Assembly: GCA_963575745.1 (NCBI GenBank) | Contig: CAUYUJ010000187.1 | Span: 1-64,000 of the forward strand | Source: Prorocentrum cordatum | Taxonomy: Eukaryota | Length of the DNA: 64,000 nt | Direction of reading: 5' to 3' | Shown: positions 9,139-49,762 of the stretch, in pieces | Layout of the letters: the number at the start of each line of letters is the position of its first letter | Position numbering within the stretch: the first letter of the stretch is position 1 | Program-made: the position numbers and the translations under genes | Notes under the pieces: generated by a model | What the model was told of the DNA's origin: nothing | The model's input: only the letters and a program-made list of their open reading frames with translations | Databases searched by the model: none

Positions 9139-12100
9139 GTGGACGCGCTGCAGGGCGTCCCGCTCGGGCTCGACGCCTTCGCTGCCCTGGCCAAAGACAG
9201 GCGGGTCCGCGAGGCCATGGATGCCCCGGCGGCCGAAGAGCCGCGCCGCGAGGCGCTCGGGGAGGAGGATAAGGAGGAGGAAGAACAGGAACAGGAGACA
9301 GAGGAGCAGGAAGAGGAGGAGCAGGAGCAGGAAGAGCAGGAGCAGGAGAGGGGCGACGAGGAGCGGAGGGAGCAGGAGAAGGGAGACGCAGTGATGGCGG
9401 ACGCAGGGGAAGAGCCGCAGGGCATGGCGGACGAGGAGGAGCTGCCCACGGGCATCGGCGAGGAGCACAAGGATTTCGTGCGGTACGTGCTGGGGACCTG
9501 CATGCTGTCGTCGGTGCCCGTCGCGCCCAGGTTCTTCGCGGGGGAGGCCCCGGACGCGGAGCTGCAGCGGCAGGTGGCGGAGCTGGAGCGGCTGCGGGAC
9601 GTCGCCCTGGGGCTCGACGCGGCCACGGCGCAGGACAGCGTGGCGCGGTCGCAGGCGATCCGGCGCCTGCGCCAGGCCGACCCCGAGCTGCTGCGCCGCA
9701 CGCCCGTGCCCAAGTCGGACGTGCGGGAGCCTTGGGAGCAGTGGCAGCGCCTGCTCCAACGGCTCGAGCAGGAGGGCGTGGAGCGCGAGGTCTGGGTCTG
9801 CTGCCGCCCCGAGCCGCTGCGCTGGCGCGCGCCGCTCCGCGACGATGGCAAGCCCGGGCCGGTCCGCGCGCCGCTGCTGCCGTCGCTGGACGCCGCCGAG
9901 GGAGAGGTCTGGAGGCCGGGGGAGGTGCGCGAGGCGACGCGGCAGGCGCGGTACGCAGAGCAGGCGCGGCGGGACGGCGCTGCTGGCGCCCCGGTGCACG
10001 GCAGCGTGCTCCTGCGCCTGGCCTCCGATTTCCTGTGCTACAAGTGCCAGCAGGATTTCGAGGGCGCGCGGGAGCTGACCGACGGAGAGGTTGATGGTTG
10101 GTGTAAGAGGTTGCATTTCGCGCCGAAGAAGCTGCCTAGCCAGGCGGTGAAGCGCGAGGCGGTGGAGGCGGAGCGCGCCCGCGCCAGGAAGCGCGCGCGG
10201 GCGGCCCAGTGCGCGGCGAGGGGGGAGAACGGATTCGCTGTGTTCCGTCGCCTCCTGCTGGAGGACGAGTGCTTCCGCCAGGACACTTGCGAAGCGAGCG
10301 TGCAGCTCGACCAGCGACACGCCCTGGAGCCCTGGTACCAGCGCGCGGGGCCCGACGGGAGCAGGCTGGCGCCGTGGCCGCGCGTCTTCGGTACCCCGAA
10401 ATCGTGGGCTGGCCATGGCGGCGCGTTCTTCTCTGAGGCCGTGGGGTCGGGCTTCGCCGCCGACGCGTTCCCCCAGGGGCGGCGCGGCTACTATACGGGC
10501 GATCCGGGCGACGTGTCCGCGGAGCTCTGGCTGTTGCGGGCCTGGTGCCGCGCGCGCGGCGGCGTCGCTCGCATGGGTGGCGCCCTGGCCGCGCGCTTGC
10601 AGCAGCTCGAGGGCGACCGCGACATCATGTGCAGGGTGGAGGCCGCCGAGTGCGCGCGGCAGGTCTCTTGTGCTGTCCCGCCCGTGTATTTGGCGGACCT
10701 GAAGCCGCAGGCGATCCCCGAGTGGCCCGTGTGGCAGCAGCTCCTCAAGCTGAAGCCTCAGGCGGCGCGGCAGGTGGCGACTTTCGTGCGCCAGGAGCGG
10801 GCGGGCGTGGGCTTCACGTGGAACCTCGCCGCGGGGCACTGGGACCTGGACCAGCAGCGCCTGCTCGCCGCGCTCGAGAGGGATCCCGCGTTGCTCGCCG
10901 CGGTGGAGAAGGGCGCCGCGGCTGCAGAGACGGACAAGGGCGTTCTGATTGCCCTCAACCAGTTCCGTGCCCGTCACGGCGGTGTCTGGCCGGACGCGTT
11001 CGCCGATCGGCGCGGGCAGCCCGATTTCAAGGAAGCGAAACTCGCGCGGGGTGTTGCAAGGGTGGCGAAGAAGTATTCGCAGGAATTCGTGCGCATCTGG
11101 TTGGACCGGACATGCCGCGAATGGCTGCGGCTGGCGGGGTGCGGGGATGAGGTGGTGGGAGGAGGGGCCGGCGGCGACGACTCTTCCGGGGGCGGCGGCG
11201 GCGGCGGCGGCGGGTCCTCTTCGGGCAGCGGTGCGGGCGGTGGACCAGCGTCGGGGTCGGGCTCTGGTGCGCAGGGGCCGGGCGACGGTGGCGCGGGCGG
11301 CGACGGCGAGGGGGGCGCGGGCGGGGGTGCGGGTCGGCTGCTCGGCGGCGGACCCAAGAGGCCAGCTCCCGAGGGGCCAGGGCCGCGGACTCGCGGGGCG
11401 GCGAGAAGGGACCGGGAGCGGTTGCAGCAGGAGCGGCTGCGGAAGGAAGAGGAGGAGCGCCTCGCAGGGAAGACAGTGAGGGCAGGGGACGTGGAGGTGA
11501 ACGTGGCTCTGGATGACCCTCACGTGAGCGAGGAGGGCACCTTGCCGGCCTGGCTCCTGGACCCCGCGCCGCTCGCCGCGGGCAGGTGCGTCGCGCGCGT
11601 CTGGCGCCCGTACAAGGGCGGATGCGTTCTCTGGCAGTGCAGCAGGAACCCGTGCAAGGGTCAGGGAGTGTTCTGTGGGAGCCACGGCAGTCCCGAGCAG
11701 CGACCCTTCGGGCTGTGGGACCCGGACAAGCGCCACAGCTCCCTGACGCGCGAGTGTCCGGAACGGTACGGCTTGGCCGTGAAGGAGGCGCGGTTGCGCG
11801 AGACGCAGGCCGGCGGCGCCCCGCCCGTGCCTACCCCGGCCATCGCTGCCGCTCGCAAGGCGCGCGTGCCCAGGCTCCAGCCGAAGTATGTGCCTCTGCC
11901 GCGTGACGAGCGCCACCCTCTGCGGGCGTTCAACGAGGCCCCGGAGGCTCTCCCGCCGTTCCCGTGCCGCCTTTGCGACCAGAACTTCGCCACGCATGCC
12001 GGCTTCATGACGCACGTGCAAAAAAAGCACCACGGGTGGCCGGAGTACAGGAAGCGCCTGTTCTACCTGGCCGAGCAGTGGCCGGAGAAGGACGGAGACG

Positions 12101-15100
12101 TGCGGCCCGTGAGGCCCCAGGAGTGGCGGCAGTGCGTGGAGGCCTTCTCTGAGCACCTCGTCACGGGGTCTCACGACTGGCCGGCCTGCGCAGCGCCCGC
12201 CGACGTCTCGGGGGGCGCCGCCGCCGCCGCTGCCGCGCCGGACGCGCCGCGCGCCTGGTGGAAGCCGCCAGGCGCGGACGGGGCCGTGCCGCCCGCGGGC
12301 GTGGACATGCCGCCCGTGGACTTGGACGCGCTGGGCGCTGCTCCGGCGGCGTCGGACGCCGAGGGGCCCGAGCCTGGGCAGAGTCGCCGCGCCGTGCGCT
12401 CGAGGGTCGCCTGCTGCGTCTGCGCTCGTCTCCACTGGGCGGACGAGCTGCAGCGCGTGCACTTCTGGCAGCAGCCGGACGGCGCCGGGGAGCGTTCGCT
12501 GCTCTGCGACGAGGTGCCGAAGCGGCCCGCGCGCGCCGAGCTCGAGGCGGCGAGGGGAGAGGCATCCGAGGCCGCAGGCGCGCAGGCTCAGGCCATGCGC
12601 CTGACGCAGCGGCAGCGCGCCCACGCGCTGCTGGACCCGGCACGGTACCACGCCCGGTGGCGCTTCGTGCGCGAGGGCCCCGACGGCGTCGAGCGCCCGG
12701 GCGGCATCCCCCTCGAGGAGCTGGAGGCGTCCGCAGTGCGCGACCCTGGCCCAGACGGGAAGCTGTGGCTCTTGCACAAGAAGTGCTTCACGATTGACAG
12801 GCGCCAGTCAGACGGAGTGCTCGTGGCCGACGCGAAGCAGAAGGTGCCCATCTGTGCAGGGTGTCACGGCGCGCTCACCAAGAGGTTGCCCACGATGCCG
12901 ACCTGCGCGCTGGCCAACGACCTCTGGATCGGGCGGCTGCCACTGCCGCTGCGGAATCTCACGCTGGGCGCGAAGCTTCTGCTGCCCATCGCGCGGGGCA
13001 TCGTGCGGCGGTTCAACTGCAAGGCCGATTCTGGCGAGTGGGCTCCAATCGACCAGAAGATCAAGGCGTACGTGGGGAACTTCGTGGCGTTCCCGCAGGC
13101 GGACGGCGGTCGGCAGGTGCTGTCGCTGCCGCCGCGGGAGAGCGACCTCGTCGAGTTCGTGCAGATTGTCTTCGCGGGGTCCGACCCCGCCACCCTGCAG
13201 AAGGCGCTATTGGAGGAGCTCGGCGTGCCCCTCGCCGATTTCAGGCGCGCTTACGAGTACCTCCGCGACACGAACGAGCAGTGCGCCGCGGTGCGGTGGG
13301 ACGAAGAGGCCGCGCGAAACTTTGCGGACCCCGGGGGCGACGGCGATGGCGACGGCTCCTCGCTCCTGGGCCTGCCTCGCTGTCTCGCGGCGTGCGTGGC
13401 CGCGGGGGGTAAGGGCGGCGACGCTCGCCAGGAGGGCCCGGCCGATGCCGTGCAGCCCGGCGCGGGCTCGGCCCCGCCGAAGCGGACGAGTGCAGGCGCT
13501 GCGAGCGCGGAGGGCGAAGCGAACGCGGCGGCTGACGGCGGGGGCGAGGCAGGGGGCTGGGGCGGGGACCCCACCGGTGAGGACGCTGCGGGCGCTGGCG
13601 GGGGGGACTCAGAGGGCGACGAGGGCAAGGCTGGTGAGGGAGGGGGCGGCGAGGGTGTCGAAGAGGGCGAGTACTGCGCCGCAGTCGCGGACTCCGACAT
13701 GCTGGCCGATCTGGACAAGCAGTGGCAGAACGTGCACCTCAGCCTCCAGAGGGCGGAGGTGATTGTGCGCGAGAAGCAGCGTGCGGAGGCACTAACGCGG
13801 CAGTGCGACGGCGTGGAGAATTTCCAGGACCGAGATTCCGACCGGCGCTTGGCGGAGGCTGCGAAAGAGGCCCACAAGGCTGCGAAATTGCTCACCAACT
13901 GCAAGAAGGAGGCACTCGCGAAGAAGCTGGAGCAGACGGAGCAGAAGATTCAGGCCACGCGGCCTCCTCCGGGAGTTGCCGGGAAGAGCGCGGCCGGTGG
14001 CGGCGGCGGCGGCGGCGCGCCGGACGGGGGCGCTGAGGGCGGGGGGGCGAGGCGTGCGGTCCGGGTCGTCGTGCCCACTGGAACCGAGCCTGTCAGCATG
14101 TTCTCCCCCGGCTTCTGGAGTGCTTTCGACCCCGTCGCGTTTCCGTGCGGCGACGGCGTCTTCGGACTCGAGAGGGAGGCGAAATTGACGTACGACGAGT
14201 GGTGCAGGTGCCTCATGGCTCGCGAGGAGCTCGAGTACGAGGTCGCCGACGACGTCTCGGCACCCGACGCTGCGCGGGCGCCCGCCGCGTCTGACTCGCC
14301 CGTGCCGCGCTGGCGTCGCCACGCTGACCTGCTCACGGCCCAGTATTGCCTCTGGCGCAGGAAGGCTATCATTAAGTCGGCCAGGTTATTCGTGCGCAAG
14401 CAGCGCCTGGGGGAGTACATCGCGGACCTCGCCGCACTGACGCCAGAGGAGCTGGCGCAGGTCGTGGCCGTGCTCGGCAGGGGGGCGGGCATCAAGGAGG
14501 CCCTGGGCCACGAGGGCGTGCCCCGGAACGTCAAGAGCGCGCTGCGCAGCATGCTGCTCAGCAACCGTGATGTTGTCGGCTCCGACGCGCACCGGACCAC
14601 GCTGCGGCACATCAGTACCAGCTACACCCGGCTCTTCGGTCCGCCCCTGGTGTTCACGACGCCGAACATCGCGGACACTCGGAACCTGATGGTGTCCCTG
14701 ATGTACGAGGGCGCCTCCGTGCAGCAATGGCGGCTGCTGGAGGAGACTGCTCCCGTGATGCCTTCGACGCGGGACATGCTGCGGCGGGTGGCCGCTGACC
14801 CGGTGTCGCAGGCCATGGTCACGAACCTCATGCTGGAACTGTTCCTGGAGCATGTCGTCGGCGTCACGCCGCAGCGCGGGGCCACGGGCGTCTCCGACGG
14901 CGTGGCCGCCACGGGGGCGTGTGGAGCGTTCGGGCTCGTCCGCGCGTTCTTCGGACCCGTGGAGTCGCAGGGGCGCGGCGGCATCCATCCGCACATCCAC
15001 TTGTGGCGCCTGCACCCGATGACTGGCGCGTTCCTCGCGAGGCTGCGCGCGGGGGACGTCGAAGGCCTCGAGGAGCGTTTGAGGAAGTGGAGGGAGGCCG

Positions 15101-18100
15101 TGCTCGCCGCGGTCGGCAGCGTGCAGTTCGACGCGGCGGAGGAGGTGGGCCGGCAGCTGGGCTTGGACGGGCCGGACCGGCTGCCGCCGCTTCCGCTCGG
15201 CCCGCGGGATCGACGACTCGCGTTCGCGGACGGGAAGCGAGAGGAGAGCGACCTCCAATTGAAGCACAATACCATCGCTGGCGCCTCGCGTCGCCAGCTC
15301 GGGAAGTTTTGCAAGACGGCGTACGAAGAGGGCCGTCGCTCCGTCCGTGCTGACAACAAATTGTCCACAGAAGAGCTGCGGAATCAGGTTGCGGCCATGA
15401 TGAACGTCGATCTTGTGGAGGAGCGGGCGACGCTGCAGCAGCAACAGCCCGCAATAGAGGGTCCGCTCCGGCAGCGCCCGTTCGCGCCGCTGGCAGATCC
15501 AGAGCCCGATCCCCATGAGCAGCGGGCACAGTACCCAGCGGTATTTGGCGAGCCTCTCACGGGTGCGCACGCGACGCTGCAGCCGCAGTACCGCCGCAAG
15601 CCTGCGTACCGCGTGCGCGCGGACGGCACCGCGGCGATGCACTTTGCGGAGGGCTCGAGGGAGGAGGCGCACAACTGGGCGCGCTGCTTCGCGCGGGACG
15701 CACGCAAGTGTATCATCCGGAGCCACCTTCACAGGTGCGGTCCCACTTGCTGGAAGCTCAAGACGAATGACGACGTGCCTCAGCACTGCAAGGTGTGCCG
15801 GCTCGGCTTCTACCACGAGTGCGAGACTGCGGTCTACAGCCACCCGTCCAGGAAGCTTCCGGCCGCCTCCTTCGTCTGGCGGCGCTTGCGCAAAGGAAAG
15901 GACTTGGTCTTGCCCGATGGGGCGCGGATCGAGTACGGCCCACCGCAGGAGGACCAGCGGAACCCGCCGGGCGAACGCCTGGTCCTCGACGAACAGTGCA
16001 CGTACGGCCCGTGGCCGCACCGCTGCAACCGGTACGGCAGAGCTGGTCGCGTCGACGTGGTGCGGTACCACCCGTACCATGGGAGCACGAACCCTGTGGG
16101 CCAGGTGTGTCTGCGGAGCAACCTGGACGTCCAGTGTCTGGACCGCGTGGTGCTCGACCTGCCTGGCGACGCCAGCGTCGGGGGTTCGCGCGACGGCGAC
16201 CCGGTCGTGCCGCCGCCTCCGGAGCTTGTTGCGTTCGCCGAGCTGGTCGCCAACGCGTCGGAAGCGCTGGCTGGCGTCGAGATTGGCGGCACCGGTGGCG
16301 ACGAGGGCACCGGGCAGAGCGGAGGTTCCACGGGTTCGGGGGTGTCGGCCGCAACGCAGGGCGGGGGCGGGGCGGGCCAGAGGGCGGCGCGCGCGGCTGC
16401 GGCGGGGGGGGGGCGCCTGCCCGTGGCCCGCCGCCTCGGCCTGCCCAGGGGGGGAGGCTTGCTCGGCGGGGCGCCGACCACGATGGACGATCCCGACGCG
16501 GAGATCTGGGACATGGGTGGGGGCGATGAAGATCCGTGCGAGTGCGATCTGGCCGATGCGTATGACCTGCGTCCGCCGTCTCCGCCGACGCCGGAACAGC
16601 GCGGCGTCGAGCAGGCAGTCGGGCTAGCAGAGCCACATGGCGAGGACACCGCGAGGTTCTGCGCGGCTGCGTGTTACGAAGGCAGCCGGCCCGGGTTCGT
16701 GTTCAAGAAGGGGGAGCAGGGCCTGGGCTACTACAGCGACCGTCGCGCGGAGCGCGAGTTGTCGGAGGCAGCCGTCCAGAGAGAGCCGAAGTCGCGGGCG
16801 CCAGGCCGCGCCGCGTCGAACGCGGCGGCGTCTGGCAGGCCTGCATCGAGCGCGCCCCCGTCGCCAGCCGCCGCCGCAGCTGCTGGCGCGAGCGGCAGCG
16901 GTCCGCTCGGCAGCCTGCAAGAGCACGTGCTGCACTCGCTGGAGGCCGTTTTCATGGATGCCATCAATATGGCCCACTACCAGACGGACTACACGACCAA
17001 GGCGGGGCCGATCGCGGGGGACCTCGGAGTGCTGCACGCGCAGAGCACCGGGTTGGAGTGGCTTCGACTCCAGCAGAAGGCCGAACGCGAGGCGGATGAG
17101 GCGGCGGAGGCGGAGGGCGAGGAGGACGTCGATGGGGCCCGGGCCGCTGCTGCCGCTCGTCGCAGCGGCTGGGGCGGAGTGCTCGACTCTGCCAGGCGAA
17201 CTGTCATCAAGCTCACGACCAGCTCGCACCGGTCGCTCCTGAAGAAGCTGCCCGAGATGATGTTTCAGATGCAGTATGGCCACGAGTGCTATTGCTCTCA
17301 TGACACCTGGACTCTGTATTGCAAGGGGATCGTGGCGCTGGCGTTCCAGGCAAGCTCCGCCGTTCATCAGAAAATGGACGACTTCTGGACCGACCCGCGC
17401 GCAGACCACATCGAGGTGGACCAGCCGGCCGCGGGAGAAGAGGACGGCGAGGGGGGGGGCGGTATCATGGATGCGCTGGGCGACGGGCGCGCAGCGCTGC
17501 ACGCCGAGGTCGTCGACGGCGTTGTCGGGGAGGGCGCGGCCGCCGGTACTGCTGGGGAGGGGAAGCCCGAGCAGGAGCAGCAGCAGGCGGTGGAATACAA
17601 GGCGCGGCTGGACCACGACATGAAGATGGACTGGCTGCATCGCGGCGACAGGGAGCCCCTGAAGTCCATGGGCATGTACCATTACGCCATGTACGTGTAC
17701 ACGGCGCAGGCCAACCCGCTCCACTTCGACCCGCAGGACTTCGAGACGTACGCGTTCGCGGACTCGCACCCGACTGCCGCCTTCCGAGTGCAGAGGCTCC
17801 GCGTCGGCGCGCCGTTCAGGGTGCCCAAGTTCTTCGGCTTCACGATGCCTTCGAAGGAGAAAGAGGCAGAGGTGAACGCGCTGTTCAAGTCTGTGATCTT
17901 TCGTCCGTTGCAGCCTGCTGAGAAGGGGGCTGCGGCCTGGGCGCCCTACAGGGCCGGTGTCGACGCGTCTGGGAAGCATAAGCCTGCCTGGGAGGAGTGG
18001 TGGGCCAATCAGTTGGCGTTGTCCAGGCAGTGCGAGGAGTGCGAGCGGCGAGCTGGAAAGTGGTTCACGATCGAGGACATCGATTTGAACCGGGGCTCAG

Positions 18101-20217
18101 AGGATGGCCCGGGCCATTTTGCACAGCGCCCCAGCGCCGCCGAGTTCATGGCACGCTGGACCGTCCAGGTCGCGACGAACCTCGACGTGGAGGCGGAGGC
18201 GAAGGGGCGGCCGCGAACCAAGGTCCGTCCGGAGGCCAAGGACTTCGAGCAGTCTGCTGAGCTGGAGGCAGTGGGGAATCGGCCTGCCGGGGAGGCAGAC
18301 GAGGAGGGGGCGGGCGCCGGCGGCGGAGCGCTGGACGGTTTTGTTCAGGAGGTGGACGAGGGCGAGGCGGACGAAGCGTGGGCGGCGCACCGACAGATGC
18401 CCGCGCACGCCTTGAAGGATAGCGAGGTGCCCGCGGTGGCCCAGTTGGAGCTTATTCGTGGGTCGGCACAAAGCTTGGTCTATAAGAATATCTTTCTTGA
18501 CGGCTATGCGAAAGACCATAAGCCGCAGCCTGCTGTCGCGAGTACTGGAATGCAGACCGGCTTCCGCGGTCTCGAGTTGGACGACTCCCAGTTCGAGGAG
18601 GGCAAGGCACAGCAGAAGGAGGCGTTCCGATACAGGAAAAAGGGAGCAGAGGGCTTGCCTGGGGATGGCGACGGGCGGAGCGGCCTCGCGGGTTCGGCGC
18701 CTGCCGTGCTCGTGCCTGGTCGGCCGCCGGCGCCCGCGGTTGCCGGCGACGAGAAGCGGCCGCCGCGGGCGCGCGACATCGCGGAGAGGCTGTTTGACGA
18801 GTGGGCGAACAGGGCGGAGAACCCCGTGACGTTCAATCCGGAGCAGAAGGCGGTGGTCGCCCTGCTCGTGGGCCAGGTGGAGGCCATCGTGGCATACCAT
18901 CAAGATCTGGACAGCGGAAAAAGCCCTAAGCCGGTGGAGCAGATGGCTCTCCTGTTGCACGGGGAGGGCGGGACGGGGAAGACGGAGGTGGTAAAACTGC
19001 TGCGACGTCTGCTCAACGAGGTGTTCGGCGCGGGATCGGAGATCGCCGTGGCCTCGTCGAACAGCGCTGCGCGCGTCATCGGGGGGGAGACGATCCACAG
19101 CGGCTTCGGGCTGAGCGGCCAACAGGCCATGGACATCAGAACGCTGTCTAGACAGAAGGTCGATGACATCGTGGACCGCATGAACGACCTCAAGGCCGTC
19201 ATCGTGGAGGAGGTGTCCATGGTGCCGCCCCAGCTTCTCGGCGCTGCATCGTTTCGCATGTGCAAAGCCCGTAAGGCTCAGTATAATTGCGATGTGAACC
19301 TGTACATGGCGCGGGGCCACATGTTCGGGAAGGTTCCGATTGTCATGTTCCTGGGGGATTTTTATCAGTTGGGGCCGGTGAGCGGCAAGGGCAGAAGGTC
19401 TTCCTTGCTGCAGCCCGAGTCGCCCGAGGCGCCGGTTCACGTCCGCAATGGGCAGTCCATGTTCCTGGACGGGCTCACCCACGCGATGTTTCTGTACGAG
19501 ACGCACCGCTTCAAGGACCGTCTCGTTACTCCGCACGCGCCCTGCCCTTTCATGCCCGGCTTCTTGAAGACCATGAGGCAGGGCAAAAAGTTTACGGCCG
19601 AGCAGAAAAGGATGGTGCAAAAGTGGGTGGTCCGACCTGGTAAGAACGATAAGCGGTTGCAGGACCCCCATGTCAAGGACGGTTTCGAGATGGGCATCGC
19701 CTGGGAGGCCGTGCACAGGCAGATGCAGTATCGGGCCGTGCGAGAGGCCAGGGATAGAGGGCAGATGCTGCTGTACGTGCAGGCCGTGGACCTGCCTCCA
19801 AGGCCATTCGGTGCGGAGCATCACAAGGCCATGCTTCAGGTGCCGAACGTGAACAACACTGGTCACCTCATCGGCATGTGCCCGCTGTACATCGGCATGC
19901 GTGTGCGGTTGAACGTGAAGTTGTCGGCGAAGCACCAGATCGTCCAGGACGCCGTGGGGGAAGTCGTGGACGTGAGGTTCCATCCGCGAGAGTTCGAGAC
20001 GCCAGACGCGGATTGGCGCGAAAAGAAGCTTCACGACGCCCACCGGATCGGTTATTATCGATGCAAATGTTTGCCGCGCGGTGTCCTCGTCAGGTTTGAT
20101 GGCCTCGAGAAGGACTTTGGGTTCGGAAAAGGGGTTGTGCAGATCGCGCCGCACAGGGCGTCCTGGGAGTGGAACCATCACTACGAGACGAGGGCGAGCG
20201 AAAGCTTCGGAAGGTGA
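9139..20217 (+). CDS. Helitron RepHel: C3H and C2H2 zinc fingers, DUF6570-like region, HUH (Y2) Rep and PIF1-family helicase motifs I-IV
   Basis: CRLC..H..H (~11965-12033); PTCALANDLWIG (~12900); GSDAHR...GPPLVFTTPN (14578-14667); VESQGRGGIHPHIHLW (14959-15006); HYQTDYTTK (16975-17001); GEGGTGKT (18961-18984); IVEEVSM (19201); GDFYQL (19354). Confidence 0.92.
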   Translation: MDALQGVPLGLDAFAALAKDRRVREAMDAPAAEEPRREALGEEDKEEEEQEQETEEQEEEEQEQEEQEQERGDEERREQEKGDAVMADAGEEPQGMADEEELPTGIGEEHKDFVRYVLGTCMLSSVPVAPRFFAGEAPDAELQRQVAELERLRDVALGLDAATAQDSVARSQAIRRLRQADPELLRRTPVPKSDVREPWEQWQRLLQRLEQEGVEREVWVCCRPEPLRWRAPLRDDGKPGPVRAPLLPSLDAAEGEVWRPGEVREATRQARYAEQARRDGAAGAPVHGSVLLRLASDFLCYKCQQDFEGARELTDGEVDGWCKRLHFAPKKLPSQAVKREAVEAERARARKRARAAQCAARGENGFAVFRRLLLEDECFRQDTCEASVQLDQRHALEPWYQRAGPDGSRLAPWPRVFGTPKSWAGHGGAFFSEAVGSGFAADAFPQGRRGYYTGDPGDVSAELWLLRAWCRARGGVARMGGALAARLQQLEGDRDIMCRVEAAECARQVSCAVPPVYLADLKPQAIPEWPVWQQLLKLKPQAARQVATFVRQERAGVGFTWNLAAGHWDLDQQRLLAALERDPALLAAVEKGAAAAETDKGVLIALNQFRARHGGVWPDAFADRRGQPDFKEAKLARGVARVAKKYSQEFVRIWLDRTCREWLRLAGCGDEVVGGGAGGDDSSGGGGGGGGGSSSGSGAGGGPASGSGSGAQGPGDGGAGGDGEGGAGGGAGRLLGGGPKRPAPEGPGPRTRGAARRDRERLQQERLRKEEEERLAGKTVRAGDVEVNVALDDPHVSEEGTLPAWLLDPAPLAAGRCVARVWRPYKGGCVLWQCSRNPCKGQGVFCGSHGSPEQRPFGLWDPDKRHSSLTRECPERYGLAVKEARLRETQAGGAPPVPTPAIAAARKARVPRLQPKYVPLPRDERHPLRAFNEAPEALPPFPCRLCDQNFATHAGFMTHVQKKHHGWPEYRKRLFYLAEQWPEKDGDVRPVRPQEWRQCVEAFSEHLVTGSHDWPACAAPADVSGGAAAAAAAPDAPRAWWKPPGADGAVPPAGVDMPPVDLDALGAAPAASDAEGPEPGQSRRAVRSRVACCVCARLHWADELQRVHFWQQPDGAGERSLLCDEVPKRPARAELEAARGEASEAAGAQAQAMRLTQRQRAHALLDPARYHARWRFVREGPDGVERPGGIPLEELEASAVRDPGPDGKLWLLHKKCFTIDRRQSDGVLVADAKQKVPICAGCHGALTKRLPTMPTCALANDLWIGRLPLPLRNLTLGAKLLLPIARGIVRRFNCKADSGEWAPIDQKIKAYVGNFVAFPQADGGRQVLSLPPRESDLVEFVQIVFAGSDPATLQKALLEELGVPLADFRRAYEYLRDTNEQCAAVRWDEEAARNFADPGGDGDGDGSSLLGLPRCLAACVAAGGKGGDARQEGPADAVQPGAGSAPPKRTSAGAASAEGEANAAADGGGEAGGWGGDPTGEDAAGAGGGDSEGDEGKAGEGGGGEGVEEGEYCAAVADSDMLADLDKQWQNVHLSLQRAEVIVREKQRAEALTRQCDGVENFQDRDSDRRLAEAAKEAHKAAKLLTNCKKEALAKKLEQTEQKIQATRPPPGVAGKSAAGGGGGGGAPDGGAEGGGARRAVRVVVPTGTEPVSMFSPGFWSAFDPVAFPCGDGVFGLEREAKLTYDEWCRCLMAREELEYEVADDVSAPDAARAPAASDSPVPRWRRHADLLTAQYCLWRRKAIIKSARLFVRKQRLGEYIADLAALTPEELAQVVAVLGRGAGIKEALGHEGVPRNVKSALRSMLLSNRDVVGSDAHRTTLRHISTSYTRLFGPPLVFTTPNIADTRNLMVSLMYEGASVQQWRLLEETAPVMPSTRDMLRRVAADPVSQAMVTNLMLELFLEHVVGVTPQRGATGVSDGVAATGACGAFGLVRAFFGPVESQGRGGIHPHIHLWRLHPMTGAFLARLRAGDVEGLEERLRKWREAVLAAVGSVQFDAAEEVGRQLGLDGPDRLPPLPLGPRDRRLAFADGKREESDLQLKHNTIAGASRRQLGKFCKTAYEEGRRSVRADNKLSTEELRNQVAAMMNVDLVEERATLQQQQPAIEGPLRQRPFAPLADPEPDPHEQRAQYPAVFGEPLTGAHATLQPQYRRKPAYRVRADGTAAMHFAEGSREEAHNWARCFARDARKCIIRSHLHRCGPTCWKLKTNDDVPQHCKVCRLGFYHECETAVYSHPSRKLPAASFVWRRLRKGKDLVLPDGARIEYGPPQEDQRNPPGERLVLDEQCTYGPWPHRCNRYGRAGRVDVVRYHPYHGSTNPVGQVCLRSNLDVQCLDRVVLDLPGDASVGGSRDGDPVVPPPPELVAFAELVANASEALAGVEIGGTGGDEGTGQSGGSTGSGVSAATQGGGGAGQRAARAAAAGGGRLPVARRLGLPRGGGLLGGAPTTMDDPDAEIWDMGGGDEDPCECDLADAYDLRPPSPPTPEQRGVEQAVGLAEPHGEDTARFCAAACYEGSRPGFVFKKGEQGLGYYSDRRAERELSEAAVQREPKSRAPGRAASNAAASGRPASSAPPSPAAAAAAGASGSGPLGSLQEHVLHSLEAVFMDAINMAHYQTDYTTKAGPIAGDLGVLHAQSTGLEWLRLQQKAEREADEAAEAEGEEDVDGARAAAAARRSGWGGVLDSARRTVIKLTTSSHRSLLKKLPEMMFQMQYGHECYCSHDTWTLYCKGIVALAFQASSAVHQKMDDFWTDPRADHIEVDQPAAGEEDGEGGGGIMDALGDGRAALHAEVVDGVVGEGAAAGTAGEGKPEQEQQQAVEYKARLDHDMKMDWLHRGDREPLKSMGMYHYAMYVYTAQANPLHFDPQDFETYAFADSHPTAAFRVQRLRVGAPFRVPKFFGFTMPSKEKEAEVNALFKSVIFRPLQPAEKGAAAWAPYRAGVDASGKHKPAWEEWWANQLALSRQCEECERRAGKWFTIEDIDLNRGSEDGPGHFAQRPSAAEFMARWTVQVATNLDVEAEAKGRPRTKVRPEAKDFEQSAELEAVGNRPAGEADEEGAGAGGGALDGFVQEVDEGEADEAWAAHRQMPAHALKDSEVPAVAQLELIRGSAQSLVYKNIFLDGYAKDHKPQPAVASTGMQTGFRGLELDDSQFEEGKAQQKEAFRYRKKGAEGLPGDGDGRSGLAGSAPAVLVPGRPPAPAVAGDEKRPPRARDIAERLFDEWANRAENPVTFNPEQKAVVALLVGQVEAIVAYHQDLDSGKSPKPVEQMALLLHGEGGTGKTEVVKLLRRLLNEVFGAGSEIAVASSNSAARVIGGETIHSGFGLSGQQAMDIRTLSRQKVDDIVDRMNDLKAVIVEEVSMVPPQLLGAASFRMCKARKAQYNCDVNLYMARGHMFGKVPIVMFLGDFYQLGPVSGKGRRSSLLQPESPEAPVHVRNGQSMFLDGLTHAMFLYETHRFKDRLVTPHAPCPFMPGFLKTMRQGKKFTAEQKRMVQKWVVRPGKNDKRLQDPHVKDGFEMGIAWEAVHRQMQYRAVREARDRGQMLLYVQAVDLPPRPFGAEHHKAMLQVPNVNNTGHLIGMCPLYIGMRVRLNVKLSAKHQIVQDAVGEVVDVRFHPREFETPDADWREKKLHDAHRIGYYRCKCLPRGVLVRFDGLEKDFGFGKGVVQIAPHRASWEWNHHYETRASESFGR

Positions 20218-23200
20218 AGGTTACGAGGTACCAGATCCCGTTGCTGCCAGAGAAAGTTCGCACCGTGCAGACTGCGCAGGGCATGGGCATGGATGCGGCC
20301 ACCATGGTGCTCCAGAAGCCCATGAACATGGGCGCCGATGACTGGTGGCTGCACCTGTACGTCATGCTCAGTCGCGTTCGCGTGGCCCACCGCGTGCTCG
20401 TCTACAACCTGCCGCCCTGGGACATTCTGGAGCGGGGCCCGCCCCAGTACGTCCGCGACGGTGTCCAACGCTTTGAAAAAAAGATGCTCGAGAGTTTCGA
20501 AATCGCCAAGCAGAAGGCGCAGGAGTACGGCTGGGACGTGGGGGATGGGCCCGCCGCGCGGAGGGCCCTGGAGTCGAGCTCGGCGCCCGCGCCGCCGGTG
20601 GTGCCACGGGCGTCGCCGCTGGGCCCGTCTCGGGCCGCGGGGACCTCAGCGGGCGTCGGTGAGGCGGACGACGACGACGACGAAGCGGCCGGATCAGTTC
20701 CTTCGGACGGGGAGGCGGCCCCTGCGGCGTCTGTGCATACGCCTCTGCCCTCGCACGCGCTGCGCTTGGGTCAGGCTCTGACGGTGCCACCGGCATACAT
20801 TGCGCCGGACGCAGGGCTTGCGGGGCCGGGCAGGGGCCGCGGCCGCGGCGGTGACGCGACGGGGACCGGAGATGCGGCGGCGGCATCGTCGACGGGGAGC
20901 GCTGTTTCGCGGGGGCGACGGCGCGCGGGTGGCGGCCGCGGTGTCGGTAGGGGCACCGTAGTGCCGAGGGATCTTTGGGGGGACATGTTTCGCACGGCGG
21001 CGACTGTTGGCGATGGTGCAGAGCCGCCAGAGCTGCGCCCGCTGGACCGGGATCTGTGCATGGCAGCTTACGGCGTGTCCCAGGAGGAGGTGACCAGGGA
21101 GCTGCAGTGGCACTGCGGCCGCGGCTCTGGCGTGGGCATCGCAAACCTCGGCAATACTTGCTTCGTGAGCGCAGTCGCGCAGGTGCTGCTACGCCTGGCT
21201 CCCTTCCGTCGGCTTCTCTACGTTCACGACCAGCGGTGCCCTCTGGGTGCGGCATCTTGCGCGGCGTGCGCGCTCGGAGCTCAGGCCACGGCTCTCTCTG
21301 TCCAGGGCGGGGGGGTCGACACCGACGCGCCGCTGGCTGCCGCCGCGCGCGCGGGGCTTTTTGGTGAGCGAGAATTCACAGAATACGATCAGCAAGGGAG
21401 ACCGAAGCAATGCGACGCGTCAGAGTTCTTCTTGGCCGCCCTCCATGCCGTTACCGAGGTCGAACACCCTGTTTGTACCGCAAGGGGGGCTCACGGGCAG
21501 CGCAGTGTGCTCCAGCAGCACGTCTGCGGCATTGCGTTTCGGCAGCGGAGGCGATGCGCCGCGTGCACAGCAAGTTCGGACAAGGGGGAAATTAAGACGT
21601 TTCTGAAGGTGGTGCCTTCCGAATTGCTCGGCCCCGACCACCGGGGGCCGTGCGATCTGGAGGACTTGATCCGGCTGGGATTAAGGCATGTCGGTGAGCC
21701 AGGGCCAGGATGTCCGGCGCACGCTCACCTCGATGATGCTCAGAGGGCGGCGGCCGGGGTCTGTCAAGGCATCAGGGTATATACAGGCAATCGCTGGGAG
21801 CGGTCGCCGCCGGTGCTCTTCGTGATCGTGGAGCGGGTGATAGGCCAGTGGTACGACAGACGCCCTGTGCGCTTTCCTCAGATTCTGCGGCCTGTGGATT
21901 CCCAGTGCCAGTACGATTTCTCGGGGGTCGTGGTGCACCAGGGCGAAAGCGCGACAAGCGGACACTATTATGCGTATGCATCCGTGGGCGTGAACGAATA
22001 CGTCAAATTCGACGACAGTGCTGTCCAGCTCCACACTTGGGCGCAGATCGCCGGAAACCACCAGGTGCACATTGGCGCCTATGTGTTTGCGTATGTGCGC
22101 AGGGCGGGTCCGCGGGGCGGAGGCGGCGGGCGCGCGGCGGCGGGGTCTGCGGGGGGCGCCAGCGGCAGCGCTGGTGCGGGACCGTCTGGTGCGCCGCCGG
22201 CTCCGCCGACTGCGCCTCTCGGGCATGCAGGCGGTCGCGCGGCGGGGTCTGCGGGGAGCGGCAGCGGCGGCGGCGGCGCTGCTTCCAGCGCCGCTGCCAA
22301 ACCGTCTGCGCCGCCGAGTGCGCCCGCCGGGCAGCAGGCGTCGGGCGGCGAGCCAACGGGCAAGCGGCGTCGGGCGGGTGGCGGGGATCCTGGCGCTGGC
22401 GACGGGGACCCCAGCGCTTCGGGGCAGCCGCAGCCGCCATCGCGCAGGGGCAAGAAGCGCGGGCTGTCCCCGCCAGCTCCGGGCCGCGCGGGCGACGAGG
22501 ACGACGACGCTGGCAGGGCCGCTGGCGTTCCGTCCGCGGACCCTGTGCCTGCTGGAGTCCAGCCAGGCGCGGGGGCGTCGCTCGCGGGGGACGAATGGCG
22601 GCGCTTTACGCCAGAAAACATTGACCCCGCGAAGTGCATGGCTCGGACGTGGGGGAACGGAGCTGGTGGGCAATGCCGGAGCGCGCAAAAGCAGGGATGC
22701 GGGGATCTGTGCGGGCTGCATTTCAAGCAGCAGCACAAAGATGGTTGGCATGGGCGTGTGGACGGGCCCATCCCGGAGGGAAAGTTGCAGGTGTTCAAGG
22801 AGAAGAACGCAGGGAAGGCCCCGCGTGCGGCGCCCGCGGCTGAGGCTGGCGCGGTGCCCGGCAGCGATGGCGTCGCCGCGAGGGCGCCGACAGGGGGCGG
22901 CGAGGGTGCTGGAGGGGCTAGCGCAACCAATGCGGCTTCGGAGCCATCCTCGGGCGGCGAGCGCGGGGGGCGTGGCGGGCGCGCGACGGCGAGGGAAATC
23001 GCCGCCGCTGCCGCGGAGGAGCGCGCGCGGCAGGAGGATCCTGAAGAACGGCGGACGCGCTTGGGCATCGCCGAGCACAACAAGCGGCAGGAGTTGCTCG
23101 GCCAGGTCGCTGGAGCCTTCCGATTGCGCCAGGAGGACGTGCCCGTCAGCATCGGCAGGTGGATTGACGAGAAGCTGCGACAGATGTTGCGCCGCCTGCG

Positions 23201-23264
23201 CCCGGAAAGAGATGACGTGGTGAGCGAGCCAACGATTGCGGCGCTGTCGGAGGAGGCTCTCTGA
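20169..23264 (+). CDS. Frameshifted continuation of RepHel: PIF1 motifs V-VI, ubiquitin-specific protease (peptidase C19) domain and second C3H finger
   Basis: RYQIPL..TVQTAQG (20262) and YVMLSRV (20358); Cys box [10 protein letters not shown] (21135-21164); QCDASEFF; His box [22 protein letters not shown] (~22005); CMARTW..GGQC..LCGLH (22635-22721). Confidence 0.88.
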
Positions 23265-23289
23265 GTGCTGCGCCTCGACGGCGGCTCTC

Positions 23290-25450
23290 TGAGTGTGTGC
23301 CTGTGTGTCTGTGTGTCTGTGAGTCTGTGTGTCTGTGTGTCTGTGTGTCTGTGTGTCTGTGTCTGCATGTCTGTGTATTTGAGTTTCTGTGTGTCTGTGT
23401 GTCTGTGTGTCTGTGTGTCTGTGTGTCTGTGTGTCTGCGTGTCTGCGTGTGTGTGTGTGTGGCTGTGTGTCTGTGTGTCTGTGGTCTGTGTGTCTGTGTG
23501 TCTGTGTATCTGTGTCTCTGTTTGTCTGTGTGTCCGTGTCTGTGAGTCTGTATGTCTGTGTGTCTGTGCGTTTGTGTGTCTGTGTGTCCGTGTATCTCTG
23601 TGCGTGTGTGTCCGCGTGTCTCTCTGTCTGTGTGTCTGTGTGTCTGTGTGTCCGTGTGTGCGTTTCCTCGTCTGTTTGAGCCCCTGGCGCTCCGCGAGGG
23701 CGGAGTGGCTGGAGTGGAGGGAGGGCTGGCCCCGAAATTGGGCGGTGCCTCCCCCCTCTGGAGCGCCAGCGGGAGTGGCGGGGGGCGGGGTGCGTAGAGG
23801 GCCGCATGGGGGTCGCGGGGGAGGGAGGGGTGTCTGTGTGGCTGTGTGTCTGTGTGTTTGAGTGTTCTTGTGTCTGTGTCTTTGTGTCTGTGTGCCGGTG
23901 TGTCAGTGTGCCTGTGTGTCTGTGCGCCTGTGTGTATGTGTGTCGGTGCGTCTGTGTGTCTGTGTGTCTGCGTGTCTGCGTGTCTGTGTTTCTGTGTGTA
24001 TATGTGTCTGTGTGTGCGTGTGCTTGTGTGTCTGTGTGTCCGTGTGTCTGTGTGACTGTGTGCTTGTGTGCCTGTGTGTCTTTGTGTCTGTGTGTCTGTG
24101 TGTCTGTGTGTCTGTGTTTCTGTGTGTCTGTGTGTCCGTGTTTCTGTGTGTCTGTGTGTCTGTGTGTCTGTGTCTCTGTGTGTCAGCGTGTCTGTGTGTC
24201 TGTGTCTGGCATGTGTGTGCGCTGGTGTGCGTTTGCGTGTGTGTGTGTGTGTGCGTGTGCGTGTGTCTGTGGCTGCGTGAGTGTTTGCGTGCGTGTGTGT
24301 GTGTGTGTGCGGGTGTTCGCGTGTGGGCGTGAGCATCCTTGTGCGGGAGTGGCCGCCGCTGCCGACGGTTCTGGGGGGCCAGCGCGACCTTGGCGGCGCT
24401 GGCCTCGTCGGTGGGCGGTGGAGGCTGGGCGACTTCGAGGATTGCGTGTACGTGTGTCTGTGTTCCTTCTTGTTAATGTGTCTGTGTGTCTGTCTGTGTC
24501 TTTTGTGAGTATGTGTGTCTGTGTGTCGTGTGCCTTTGTGTCTCTGTGTCTGTGTAGCTGTGTGTCTGTGTGTCTGTGTGTCTGTGTGTCAGCGTGTCAG
24601 TGTGGCAGTGGCAGTGTGTCACTGTGTCAGTGTTTGTCAGTGTGTCTGTGTGTCTGTGTGTCTGTGTGTCTGTGTGTCTGTGTCTCTGTGTGACCGTGTG
24701 TCTGTGTGTCTGTGTGTATGTGTGTGTGTGTCCGTGTGTATGCGTGTCTGTGTGTCTGTGTGTCTGTGTGTCTGTGTCTGCGTCTCTGTGTGTCTGTGTG
24801 TCTGTGTGTCTGTGCGTCTGTGTGTCTTTGTGTGTTTTTGTGTCTGTGTGTCTGTGTGTGTGTGTACCTGTGTGTCTGTGCGTCTATGTGTCTCTGTGTC
24901 TGTGAGTGAGTGTGTCTGTGTGTCAGTGTGTCAGTGTGTCTGTGTGTGTCTCTGTGTCTGTGTGTGTGTCTGTGCGTCTGTGTTTCTGTGTGTCTGTGTG
25001 TCTGTGTGTCTCTGTGTCTGTGCGCGTGTGTATGCGTGTGAGTGTGTGGGTGTGTGTCTGCCTGTGTGCGCGCGCGGCGCTGGGGCCCCCGCGCTTTGCC
25101 CCAGTGGCGCTCCGCGAGGGCGGAGTGGCTGGAGTGCAGGGAGGTCCGGCCGCAAAATGGGGCGGTGCCTCCCCCCTCCAGAGCGCCGGCGGGGAGGCCG
25201 GGGGCGCGTGGTGTGTGCTTGTGTGATTTGGGTGCGTGTTCGTCTCCGTAGGTGTGTATGTGAGATGTTGTGTGTTTGTGTGTGTGTGTGTGTGCGCGTT
25301 CGCGCGTGTGTTTCGACCTCTACGCGTGGATGTGTGCGTGTGTGTGCGTGTGTGTGTGCGTGTGTGCTGAGCATGCTGGCGTGCGTTTGTGTCCTCGTGT
25401 TGTATGTGTGTGGCCGTGCGTGCGTGCTGATGTGCGTGTGCTCGTTTGTG
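23290..25450. repeat. (GTGTCTGT)n/(GT)n microsatellite field within the Helitron 3' region
   Basis: Directly visible 8-bp periodicity, interrupted by GC-rich islands. Confidence 0.95.
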
Positions 25451-34053: not shown

Positions 34054-34075
34054 ACCGTAGCCGTTTTGGCTCAAG
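34054..34075 (+). other. Relic dinoflagellate spliced leader (DinoSL)
   Basis: ACCGTAGCCGTTTTGGCTCAAG versus consensus DCCGTAGCCATTTTGGCTCAAG, 21/22 identical. Confidence 0.85.
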
Positions 34076-35611: not shown

Positions 35612-35711
35612 NNNNNNNNNNNNNNNNNNNNNNNNNNNNNNNNNNNNNNNNNNNNNNNNNNNNNNNNNNNNNNNNNNNNNNNNNNNNNNNNNNNNNNNNN
35701 NNNNNNNNNNN
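35612..35711. other. Assembly gap (100 N)
   Basis: Run of N; continuity across it is unverified. Confidence 1.

Positions 35712-47441: not shown

Positions 47442-49762
<2,321 letters not shown>

What the first reader, a model, noticed from the sequence alone, without database searches (positions are those of the whole stretch)
21100..22100. Helitron RepHel fused to an intact-looking ubiquitin-specific protease (USP/C19)
Seen: Cys box NLGNTCF, QxDAxEF, CxxC pairs, His box [11 protein letters not shown] and KFDD lie in the same ORF as PIF1 motifs V-VI, with no sign of introns. Known: some Helitron/Helentron proteins carry OTU proteases or APE endonucleases; a USP fusion is not one I recognise as standard. 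Inference: it may protect RepHel or its covalent protein-DNA intermediates from ubiquitin-dependent removal, or process the polyprotein.
Basis: partly seen in the sequence, partly recalled or inferred. Interest (0 to 1): 0.7.

Follow-up and report, generated by a model that had tools for sequence, protein, structure and literature searches.

The report
Helitron-type transposase with built-in USP deubiquitinase
A 15-kb rolling-circle (Helitron-type) jumping gene, probably in a dinoflagellate, encodes one giant protein ending in an intact-looking ubiquitin-removing enzyme of the USP type; all its close relatives in plankton sequence data share this, but a 2024 survey already listed the domain pairing.

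Summary
Window 21132-22091 matches Pfam UCH/peptidase C19 (E 2.2e-20). The Cys box, His box and Asp pair are in place, and the model has a USP fold (best match USP36). The domain lies in one 1054-aa ORF with helicase motifs V-VI.

The USP is the C-terminal part of a giant Helitron-like polyprotein of about 4,700 aa: DUF6570, Rep (HUH, two Tyr), PIF1 helicase, USP, then a small Cys3-His module. In this copy a 1-nt deletion near 20185 splits the protein; contigs of other runs carry the missing base.

It is not a one-off capture:
- All 7 long helicase relatives (36-53% identical) carry UCH in the same protein.
- The catalytic Cys and His are kept in every relative that covers them.
- USP divergence tracks helicase divergence (rho 0.97, n=9).

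DUF6570 without an endonuclease places the element in the HLE2 (Helitron2-like) group.

Novelty is limited. The HELIANO paper (2024) lists UCH among domains of HLE2 elements of lungfish and axolotl, there as a separate ORF. OTU and VTD deubiquitinases in Helentrons are also known. What I did not find in print is the in-frame fusion, the giant size, the Cys module and the protist host.

Function is inferred: a cis-acting deubiquitinase that shields the transposase.

The parts
7800..23290 (+). GC-rich block (66-81% GC in 200-nt steps) taken as the element; flanks are 45-55% GC. The true termini are not resolved.
   Evidence: No terminal inverted repeat was found.
9139..20217 (+). Frame 1 of the polyprotein (3692 aa from stop to stop; first ATG at 9217): N-terminal region, DUF6570, Rep, and most of the PIF1 helicase.
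   Evidence: Colinear with relatives from about 9742 onward.
11587..11685 (+). N-terminal Cys-rich stretch whose pattern resembles the C-terminal module. Followed by a C2H2-like finger at 11959-12030.
   Evidence: Read from the sequence; coordinates. No Pfam match.
12892..13311 (+). DUF6570 domain (HLE2 marker according to HELIANO).
   Evidence: E 3.8e-16, 60.2 bits against a cut-off of 24.3, residues 1252-1391.
14437..15006 (+). Rep N-terminal part (Helitron_like_N), ending in the HUH motif HPHIH (14986-15006).
   Evidence: E 4.5e-10, 40.5 bits against a cut-off of 28.9. Motif coordinates.
16414..16518 (+). Short motif RLPV..R..GGGLLGG..TMDDPDAEIW inside a disordered Rep linker. It resembles a ubiquitin tail (LxGG).
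   Evidence: shared with P0175/P0166, and looser forms in P0223 and P0188.
16975..17001 (+). Two-tyrosine Rep motif HYQTDYTTK, about 660 aa after the HUH motif.
   Evidence: The same motif (HYMGDYSTK) is in P0049.
18946..20549 (+). PIF1-type helicase: Walker A at 18961-18984, motif II at 19198-19221, motifs V/VI at 20262-20294. It spans the frame change.
   Evidence: PIF1 E 1.3e-14, 54.8 bits against a cut-off of 25.9.
20182..20186 (+). Site of a 1-nt deletion that shifts the reading frame from frame 1 to frame 3 in this copy.
   Evidence: P0005 residues 559 and 562 flank the site.: an extra A behind 20185 in contigs of X1, X2 and X16.: all relatives with a segment on each side of the site cross here.
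20100..23264 (+). Frame 3 of the polyprotein (1054 aa): helicase C-terminus, low-complexity linker, USP, Cys module, helical tail, and stop at 23262-23264.
21132..22091 (+). USP / peptidase C19 domain: oxyanion Asn 21144-21146, catalytic Cys354 21159-21161, His622 21963-21965, Asp638-Asp639 22011-22016.
22596..22787 (+). Conserved Cys3-His module (WRRFTP..C..ARTW..G.GGQC..C..H..GWHG.V.G.IP..KL). Probably zinc-binding. No known family.
   Evidence: three invariant Cys; pLDDT 84.6. No Pfam or PDB sequence match. Weak A20-finger resemblance.
23294..25060 (+). (TGTGTGTC)n microsatellite that abuts the 3' side, 30 nt after the stop codon. It may hide the 3' terminus.

Best explanation
Window 7800-23290 is one copy of a giant Helitron-like element of the HLE2 (Helitron2-like) group, with no AP endonuclease. 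Its single polyprotein of about 4,700 aa runs: N-terminal region, DUF6570, HUH/Tyr-Tyr Rep, PIF1 helicase, linker, USP-type cysteine deubiquitinase, Cys3-His module.

Shown here:
- The USP is an integral, inherited part of the transposase in this whole clade.
- It keeps its full catalytic set.
- It is modelled with the USP fold.

Inferred:
- It is an active deubiquitinase (or Ubl protease).
- Because it is tethered in cis, it most likely strips ubiquitin from the transposase itself, perhaps while the transposase is covalently joined to DNA through its tyrosine. That would save it from proteasomal or DNA-protein-crosslink proteolysis.
- This is the same service that OTU and VTD domains are thought to give to other HLE2 elements.

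The window's own copy carries a 1-nt deletion in the helicase, so it cannot make the full protein. In-frame copies exist elsewhere.
For: **Domains.** Pfam finds UCH, DUF6570, Helitron_like_N and PIF1, all above their curated cut-offs.

**Fold.** The model has pLDDT 86.3 and pTM 0.86. The top Foldseek hits are all USPs, led by USP36 8bs3_A at E 1.7e-21, TM 0.69/0.76.

**Catalytic residues** (29 relatives asked, one dropped):
- Cys in 24 of 24 relatives that cover the column
- His in 27 of 27
- the invariant Asp in 27 of 27

**The fusion is clade-wide.**
- 7 of 7 long helicase relatives (2786-6084 aa, E<=1e-75) carry PF00443 with PF14214.
- P0175 (3740 aa), P0188 (4575 aa) and P0223 (4888 aa) are single proteins with DUF6570, Rep, PIF1 and UCH.
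- All are colinear with the window.
- USP identity tracks helicase identity: Spearman 0.97, n=9.
- All 33 element-linked USPs fall on one side of a branch with support 99, away from 92 cellular-type USPs (FastTree).

**A DUB sits at this position in other lineages too.**
- A distant relative, P0227, has an OTU after the helicase.
- P0209 has EN, then USP, then the Cys module.

**Other copies are in frame.** An extra A behind 20185 appears in contigs of three runs.

**Literature.** Helitron VTD domains cleave ubiquitin in vitro, and protection from degradation is the authors' proposal (PMC9741609, passages read).
Against: - No activity, substrate or ubiquitin binding was tested.
- The USP is the least conserved catalytic part: 26-44% identity against 34-64% for the helicase, a mean ratio of 0.73. 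That could mean relaxed constraint.
- dN/dS for the USP could not be measured. Only 7 variant sites in it were listed, 2 of them synonymous.
- RNA-library contigs cover parts of the stretch, but contigs cannot prove transcription.
- Element termini, and therefore mobility of this copy, are not shown.
- Cis action on the transposase is inference from the architecture alone.
Confidence: 0.6

Rival explanations
1. The USP is active but works on host targets, not on the transposase. For example, it could remove ubiquitin from histones, PCNA/RPA or damage-signalling factors, so that nicking and rolling-circle copying go unnoticed.
For: The closest cellular relatives by sequence and fold are USP36-type enzymes and plant UBP23/25-like enzymes. 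That these are nuclear is my recollection, not a tool result. A conserved Cys module with a weak likeness to ubiquitin-binding A20 fingers follows the USP.
Against: A strict in-frame fusion in all 7 long relatives is not needed for a diffusible effector. No substrate evidence of any kind exists.
Confidence: 0.2
2. The USP is a processing protease. Like the USP-fold papain-like proteases of some RNA viruses, it would cut the 4,700-aa polyprotein at LxGG-like sites.
For: The protein is very large and has long disordered linkers. The motif RLPV.R..LLGG followed by TMDDPDA lies in a disordered linker and is shared with P0175/P0166, with looser forms in P0223 and P0188.
Against: [LIVM]xGG motifs are not enriched: 8 found against 7.5 +/- 2.7 in shuffles. 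The motif was not picked up by my simple pattern searches in the other six relatives examined. It sits between the HUH and Tyr motifs of Rep, where a cut would split the nuclease. That cellular-type USPs need the ubiquitin fold, not a bare peptide, is recalled.
Confidence: 0.07
3. The USP is a captured host gene fragment carried as a passenger, with no role in transposition and slowly decaying.
For: Helitron-like elements capture genes often (PMC11417382, section 22). The USP evolves faster than Rep and Hel.
Against: The catalytic residues are kept in every relative down to 26% identity. The position and frame are the same in 7 of 7 long relatives. There is no stop codon in 1054 aa. All element-linked USPs fall on one side of a supported branch.
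Confidence: 0.05

Closest known systems
UCH-bearing HLE2 elements, subgroups c and d of HELIANO (Nucleic Acids Res 2024, PMC11417382; sections 22 and 23, passages and one row of Table S11 read)
   Same: A Helitron-like element of the HLE2 group. It has DUF6570 and a Pfam UCH (PF00443) domain at a conserved position relative to RepHel.
   Different: - Those elements come mostly from lungfish and axolotl.
- The paper names only four domains as sharing the RepHel ORF and says the other 17, which by implication include UCH, lie in different ORFs.
- Here the USP is fused in frame to the helicase, the protein is 2.8-6.1 thousand aa long, a Cys3-His module follows the USP, and the host is a marine protist.
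- I could not compare sequences, because none of theirs is held here.
Helentron VTD and OTU deubiquitinase domains (Erven et al., Nat Commun 2022, PMC9741609; passages read)
   Same: A cysteine deubiquitinase domain inside the open reading frame of an HLE2-type rolling-circle transposase. VTD activity on ubiquitin and NEDD8 was shown there. One distant relative found here (P0227) has an OTU at the same C-terminal position.
   Different: It is a different protease class (USP/C19, not VTD/C76 or OTU). The window element has no AP endonuclease. No activity data exist for it.
Cellular USP36-type enzymes and plant UBP23/25-like USPs
   Same: These are the best sequence and fold matches: 8bs3 at E 2.3e-10 and 1.7e-21. 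They share the same Cys box NLGNTCF, a CxxC after it, and the His box GHY.
   Different: Identity is only about 21-26%. The element USPs form their own branch. They have QCDA where cellular USPs have QEDA. They are fused to a transposase.
Helitron2-like RepHel of Symbiodinium microadriaticum (Heringer and Kuhn, Mol Biol Evol 2022, PMC8788227; one passage read)
   Same: A dinoflagellate HLE2-type RepHel without an AP endonuclease.
   Different: The passage I read mentions no protease domain, and a term search of the paper for ubiquitin, OTU and protease found none. I did not compare sequences.

Membership tests
Peptidase C19 / USP (Pfam UCH, PF00443) | Profile match above the curated cut-off over the whole domain | tested here: met
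   73.8 bits against a cut-off of 23.9, profile positions 1-253 of 254.
Peptidase C19 / USP (Pfam UCH, PF00443) | Cys box with the catalytic Cys and the oxyanion Asn | tested here: met
   N349 and C354 align to NLGNTCF of USP36. The Cys is kept in 24 of 24 relatives that cover the column.
Peptidase C19 / USP (Pfam UCH, PF00443) | His box with the catalytic His, and the Asp/Asn that orients it | tested here: met
   H622 in SGHYY and D638-D639 in KFDD align to USP36. His is kept in 27 of 27 and the second Asp in 27 of 27. The first position is D or N in the relatives aligned, except Ser in P0210. Which of the two Asp is the catalytic one is recalled, not tested.
Peptidase C19 / USP (Pfam UCH, PF00443) | USP catalytic-core fold | tested here: met
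   Model pLDDT 86.3. 449 PDB chains match at E<=0.001, and all listed hits are USPs, TM 0.60-0.69 by query length.
Peptidase C19 / USP (Pfam UCH, PF00443) | Isopeptidase activity on ubiquitin or a ubiquitin-like modifier | not testable with these tools
   Needs a bench assay.
Helitron-like element, HLE2 group (Helitron2 / Helentron) | Rep with an HUH motif and a two-tyrosine motif | tested here: met
   Helitron_like_N scores 40.5 bits against a cut-off of 28.9. HPHIH at 14986-15006 and YQTDYTTK at 16975-17001.
Helitron-like element, HLE2 group (Helitron2 / Helentron) | PIF1-type helicase C-terminal to Rep in the same protein | tested here: met
   PIF1 scores 54.8 bits against a cut-off of 25.9. 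Relatives are continuous from Rep to helicase.
Helitron-like element, HLE2 group (Helitron2 / Helentron) | DUF6570, proposed by HELIANO as the marker of HLE2 against HLE1 | tested here: met
   60.2 bits against a cut-off of 24.3; PMC11417382 section 23.
Helitron-like element, HLE2 group (Helitron2 / Helentron) | Defined termini, subterminal hairpin and target site; several copies sharing the same ends | tested here: inconclusive
   Only one copy is in the window. There are no terminal inverted repeats, and the 3' side runs into a microsatellite. Many near-identical short contigs in run X1 (947 at 99% or more) suggest multiple copies but do not show the ends.
Helentron (strict sense) | AP endonuclease (Exo_endo_phos) after the helicase | tested here: not met
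   No such match in either frame at E<=0.1. It is present in the distant USP-bearing relatives P0209 and P0210.
HELIANO HLE2 subgroups c/d (UCH-bearing) | RepHel groups with those subgroups in a tree | not testable with these tools
   Their sequences are not held here. Supplement file 1 of the paper gave only the Pfam row for UCH.
A20-type zinc finger (for the Cys3-His module) | Cys4 knuckle fold and spacing | tested here: inconclusive
   Foldseek ranks 1 and 4 are A20 fingers, but at E 2.4 and 6.7. VIA gives Z 2.1 for A20 ZF7 3vux_E, 33 residues aligned. The spacing C-x11-C-x2-H fits only the second half of the A20 pattern, which I recall from memory.

The most novel reading that the evidence does not exclude
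HLE2 rolling-circle transposases need a deubiquitinase tethered in cis. The USP plus a ubiquitin-binding Cys3-His finger would form a self-cleaning cassette that keeps the transposase, covalently linked to DNA through tyrosine, from being ubiquitylated and destroyed by the host's DNA-protein-crosslink repair. On this reading USP, OTU and VTD domains at the same C-terminal position are three independent solutions to the same host defence.
Probability: 0.25. Interest if true: 0.7.

Novelty: new variant of a known kind. Interest (0 to 1): 0.45.

Why it matters
Three unrelated deubiquitinase classes are now seen fused to the same group of rolling-circle transposases: OTU and VTD (known) and USP (listed in 2024, characterised here). 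This repeated recruitment argues that ubiquitin tagging is a real host barrier to this kind of transposition.

The clade offers a clean test case. It has a recognisable catalytic triad to mutate, many diverged natural variants, and possibly a partner ubiquitin-binding finger.

It also shows that plankton metagenomes hold a clade of very large Helitron-like transposases (2.8-6.1 thousand aa) that surveys of animals, plants and fungi have not covered.

Tried and rejected
- **Own genome:** none is held, so I could not do genome-wide copy counts, termini or codon-level dN/dS.
- **dN/dS:** I scored the 40 listed variant sites of the laid contigs. 24 are at codon position 3, and 19 are synonymous against 21 not. 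Only 7 lie in the USP, too few to use, and 118 further sites were not shown.
- **Metagenome loci:** the first query alignment was too diverse. A second query gave 7 loci at 29-62% identity, too distant for dS. Viral contigs gave none.
- **Polyprotein cleavage sites:** no enrichment.
- **Termini:** no terminal inverted repeats.
- **Cys module:** no Pfam match, no PDB sequence match, and no Foldseek hit at E<=0.001. VIA found only 2 chains at Z>=2. The Atlas feature search gave only unnamed virus clusters at 0.83-0.90 and DUF5763 at 0.76, which is a lead only.
- **N-terminal region and Rep insert:** the 776 aa at the N-terminus and the 656-aa insert between the HUH and Tyr motifs have no significant Pfam match.
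- **Source names of relatives:** all are metagenomic apart from three mislabelled 'bacterial MAG' entries, so no host taxa could be read.
- **Programmed frameshift:** rejected, because other copies simply carry the extra base.
- **Run depths and habitats** are not used as evidence.
Full report
**What is at the coordinates.**

A stop-free frame runs from 20100 to 23264 on the + strand (1054 aa). Its residues 345-664 (window 21132-22091) match Pfam UCH, PF00443, at E 2.2e-20 (73.8 bits, cut-off 23.9), covering profile positions 1-253 of 254.
- NLGNTCF at 21144-21164
- QCDASEF at 21408-21428
- two CAAC motifs
- SGHYY, with His622 at 21963-21965
- KFDD at 22005-22016

A sequence search of the PDB returned 49 distinct sequences at E<=0.01, all of them USPs. 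USP36 (8bs3) was best at 2.3e-10, and its Cys box and His box align with the window's. An AlphaFold model built on 29 aligned sequences has pLDDT 86.3 and pTM 0.86. Foldseek finds 449 PDB chains at E<=0.001, and the listed ones are all USP catalytic domains, led by USP36 (E 1.7e-21, TM 0.69/0.76).

**The surroundings.**

The USP lies in a GC-rich block (66-81% GC) from about 7800 to 23290, within flanks of 45-55% GC. Upstream, a second frame (9139-20217, 3692 aa) carries three domains, all above their cut-offs:
- DUF6570 at residues 1252-1391
- Helitron_like_N at residues 1767-1953, ending in HPHIH
- PIF1 at residues 3270-3424

A two-tyrosine motif, YQTDYTTK, lies at 16975-17001.

The helicase continues into the USP frame, with [11 protein letters not shown] at 20262-20294. 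The two frames meet at 20182-20186. Relative P0005 aligns up to its residue 559 with frame 1 and from residue 562 with frame 3, leaving 5 nt where 6 are expected. Every long relative with a reported segment on each side of the site switches frame at the same place. When Logan contigs of four public runs were laid on 19900-22200, an extra A behind 20185 appeared in three of them:
- X1: depth 75 of 372, in 3 contigs
- X2: 595 of 595
- the RNA-library run X16: 11.7 of 16.2, with a C in the other 4.5

So this copy has a 1-nt deletion, and in-frame copies exist. It is not a programmed shift. Read through, the product is one polyprotein of about 4,700 aa. No intron is needed anywhere.

**Is the fusion a one-off?**

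No. The evidence:
- A search with the helicase alone, among proteins of 2030-6461 aa, returned 9 hits. The 7 with E<=1e-75 (36-53% identity, 2786-6084 aa) all carry PF00443 together with PF14214. Six of them also have PF20209 and five PF05970 in the precomputed lists.
- The two remote hits lack UCH. One has an OTU instead, and one is fungal with no protease.
- My own Pfam scans confirm single proteins with DUF6570, Helitron_like_N, PIF1 and UCH in that order: P0175 (3740 aa), P0188 (4575 aa) and P0223 (4888 aa).
- A full scan of 1.84 billion representative proteins with the USP domain gave 874 hits at E<=0.001 and 10 at E<=1e-30. Among the listed hits and those, 9 also contain the helicase tail and 10 contain the module that follows the USP.
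- In a FastTree of 143 USP domains, all 33 rows linked to a helicase tail or to that module lie on one side of a branch with support 99, together with 18 unlabelled fragments. The other 92 rows are cellular-type USPs.
- Across nine relatives, USP identity to the window rises with helicase identity (Spearman 0.97, p 2e-5). The rows are not independent. The USP is on average 0.73 times as conserved as the helicase.

**Is it likely to be active?**

I aligned the window with 28 element-linked relatives. I had asked for 29, but P0224 was dropped because phmmer found no domain in it. The result:
- The catalytic Cys is present in all 24 relatives that cover the column. Four are N-terminal fragments.
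- The His is present in 27 of 27. One relative is cut by a contig end.
- The Asp after the D/N position is present in 27 of 27.

The clade has its own signature, QCDA, where cellular USPs have QEDA. Among the 40 variant sites listed by read laying, 24 are third codon positions, which fits purifying selection on the ORF as a whole. Only 7 of these sites fall in the USP, so its own dN/dS stays open. Contigs from two RNA libraries cover parts of the helicase and USP. Contigs cannot prove transcription.

**What kind of element is it?**

DUF6570 is proposed as the marker of the HLE2 group (PMC11417382, section 23). No AP endonuclease is found, so the element is Helitron2-like and not a Helentron in the strict sense.

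Distant USP-bearing relatives do have the endonuclease. In P0209 the order is PIF1, Exo_endo_phos, UCH, Cys module. Another distant relative, P0227, ends in an OTU at the place where this clade has the USP.

The termini could not be defined. There is only one copy in the window and no terminal inverted repeat, and a (TGTGTGTC)n array starts 30 nt after the stop codon.

The host is probably a dinoflagellate. A spliced-leader relic with one mismatch in 21 lies at 34055-34075, and none of 100 shuffles gave any match. The motif itself is recalled from memory. Earlier notes of this scan say the same, and one names Prorocentrum cordatum (I did not check the species).

**The module after the USP.**

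Residues 833-896 of the USP frame (window 22596-22787) are conserved in 12 relatives, with three invariant Cys and a His or Cys three residues after the last. The module has no Pfam match and no PDB sequence match. It folds with pLDDT 84.6.

Only weak structural likeness was found. A20-type zinc fingers appear at Foldseek ranks 1 and 4 (E 2.4 and 6.7), and A20 ZF7 bound to ubiquitin appears at VIA Z 2.1. That A20 fingers bind ubiquitin is recalled. This is a lead only.

**How it most likely works.**

- Shown: the architecture, its inheritance through the clade, the catalytic residues and the fold.
- Inferred: the domain is an active deubiquitinase. Because it is always fused in cis, it most likely removes ubiquitin from the transposase itself, possibly while Rep is covalently joined to DNA, and so avoids degradation.

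This is the role Erven et al. propose for the VTD domains of Helitrons, whose activity they showed in vitro (PMC9741609, passages read).

The rivals are:
- action on host nuclear targets
- polyprotein processing. LxGG motifs are not enriched, 8 against 7.5 +/- 2.7 in shuffles. One RLLGG-like motif in a disordered Rep linker is shared by some lineages.
- a functionless passenger, which the conservation argues against.

**Comparison with what is known.**

- I ran four full-text searches. HELIANO (Nucleic Acids Res 2024) lists UCH among 20 extra domains stably included in Helitron-like elements. It is found almost only in HLE2 and is enriched in subgroups c and d, which come mostly from lungfish and axolotl. 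The paper states that, apart from four named domains, the others lie in ORFs separate from RepHel. Figures 7 and 8 are not held, and the supplement gave only the Pfam row for UCH, so details there may bear on this.
- OTU and VTD domains in Helentrons are established.
- A term search of the Heringer and Kuhn paper on a Symbiodinium Helitron2-like RepHel found no mention of ubiquitin, OTU or protease.
- Those four searches, and the papers I opened, gave no description of an in-frame RepHel-USP polyprotein, of the Cys module, or of such elements in dinoflagellates.
- The scan's own notes hold no look-alike.

**Verdict.**

This is a real, clade-wide, probably functional USP fused to a giant HLE2 transposase. 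The domain pairing itself is already in print. I rate it a new variant of a known kind, of moderate interest.

Noticed in passing
window 16414-16518: A short conserved motif (RLPV..R..LLGG..TMDDPDA.IW) sits inside an otherwise variable, disordered linker between the HUH and Tyr motifs of Rep. It is shared with P0175/P0166, and looser forms occur in P0223 and P0188. Its LLGG resembles a ubiquitin C-terminus.
   Followed up: partly
window 14986-17001: The HUH motif and the two-tyrosine motif of Rep are about 660 aa apart. The insert between them is Cys-rich and then disordered, with no Pfam match. From memory, this is far more than in the studied Helitron transposase.
   Followed up: partly
window 22596-22787 and 11587-11685: A conserved Cys3-His module follows the USP, and a similar Cys pattern occurs near the N-terminus of the same polyprotein. 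It belongs to no known family. There is a weak likeness to A20-type zinc fingers and to small proteins of giant viruses (feature search only).
   Followed up: partly
window 23294-25060; 23675-23784 and 25095-25204: A 1.8-kb (TGTGTGTC)n array starts 30 nt after the element's stop codon. Within and just beyond the array lie two copies of a 110-nt GC-rich unit, 85% alike.
   Followed up: partly
window 34055-34075 (+): A 21-nt match to the dinoflagellate spliced leader with one mismatch (0 of 100 shuffles matched). It looks like a relic of a retroposed transcript.
   Followed up: no
window 47557-49761: Very long trinucleotide arrays: (ATG)n of about 162 copies, then (AGT)n of about 557 copies. They account for the GC skew of 0.69 in this stretch.
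   Followed up: no
window 35612-35711: A run of 100 N (assembly gap).
   Followed up: no
proteins P0006 and P0210 (metagenome relatives): Each carries a second, weaker USP-like stretch upstream of the main USP. In P0006 the Cys-box position lacks the catalytic Cys. This may be a tandem active/inactive pair, like the inactive VTD copies described for Helitrons.
   Followed up: no
proteins P0113, P0191 and P0192: Members of this eukaryotic transposon clade are deposited as hypothetical proteins of 'Actinomycetales bacterium' or 'bacterium' MAGs. This is most likely binning contamination.
   Followed up: no
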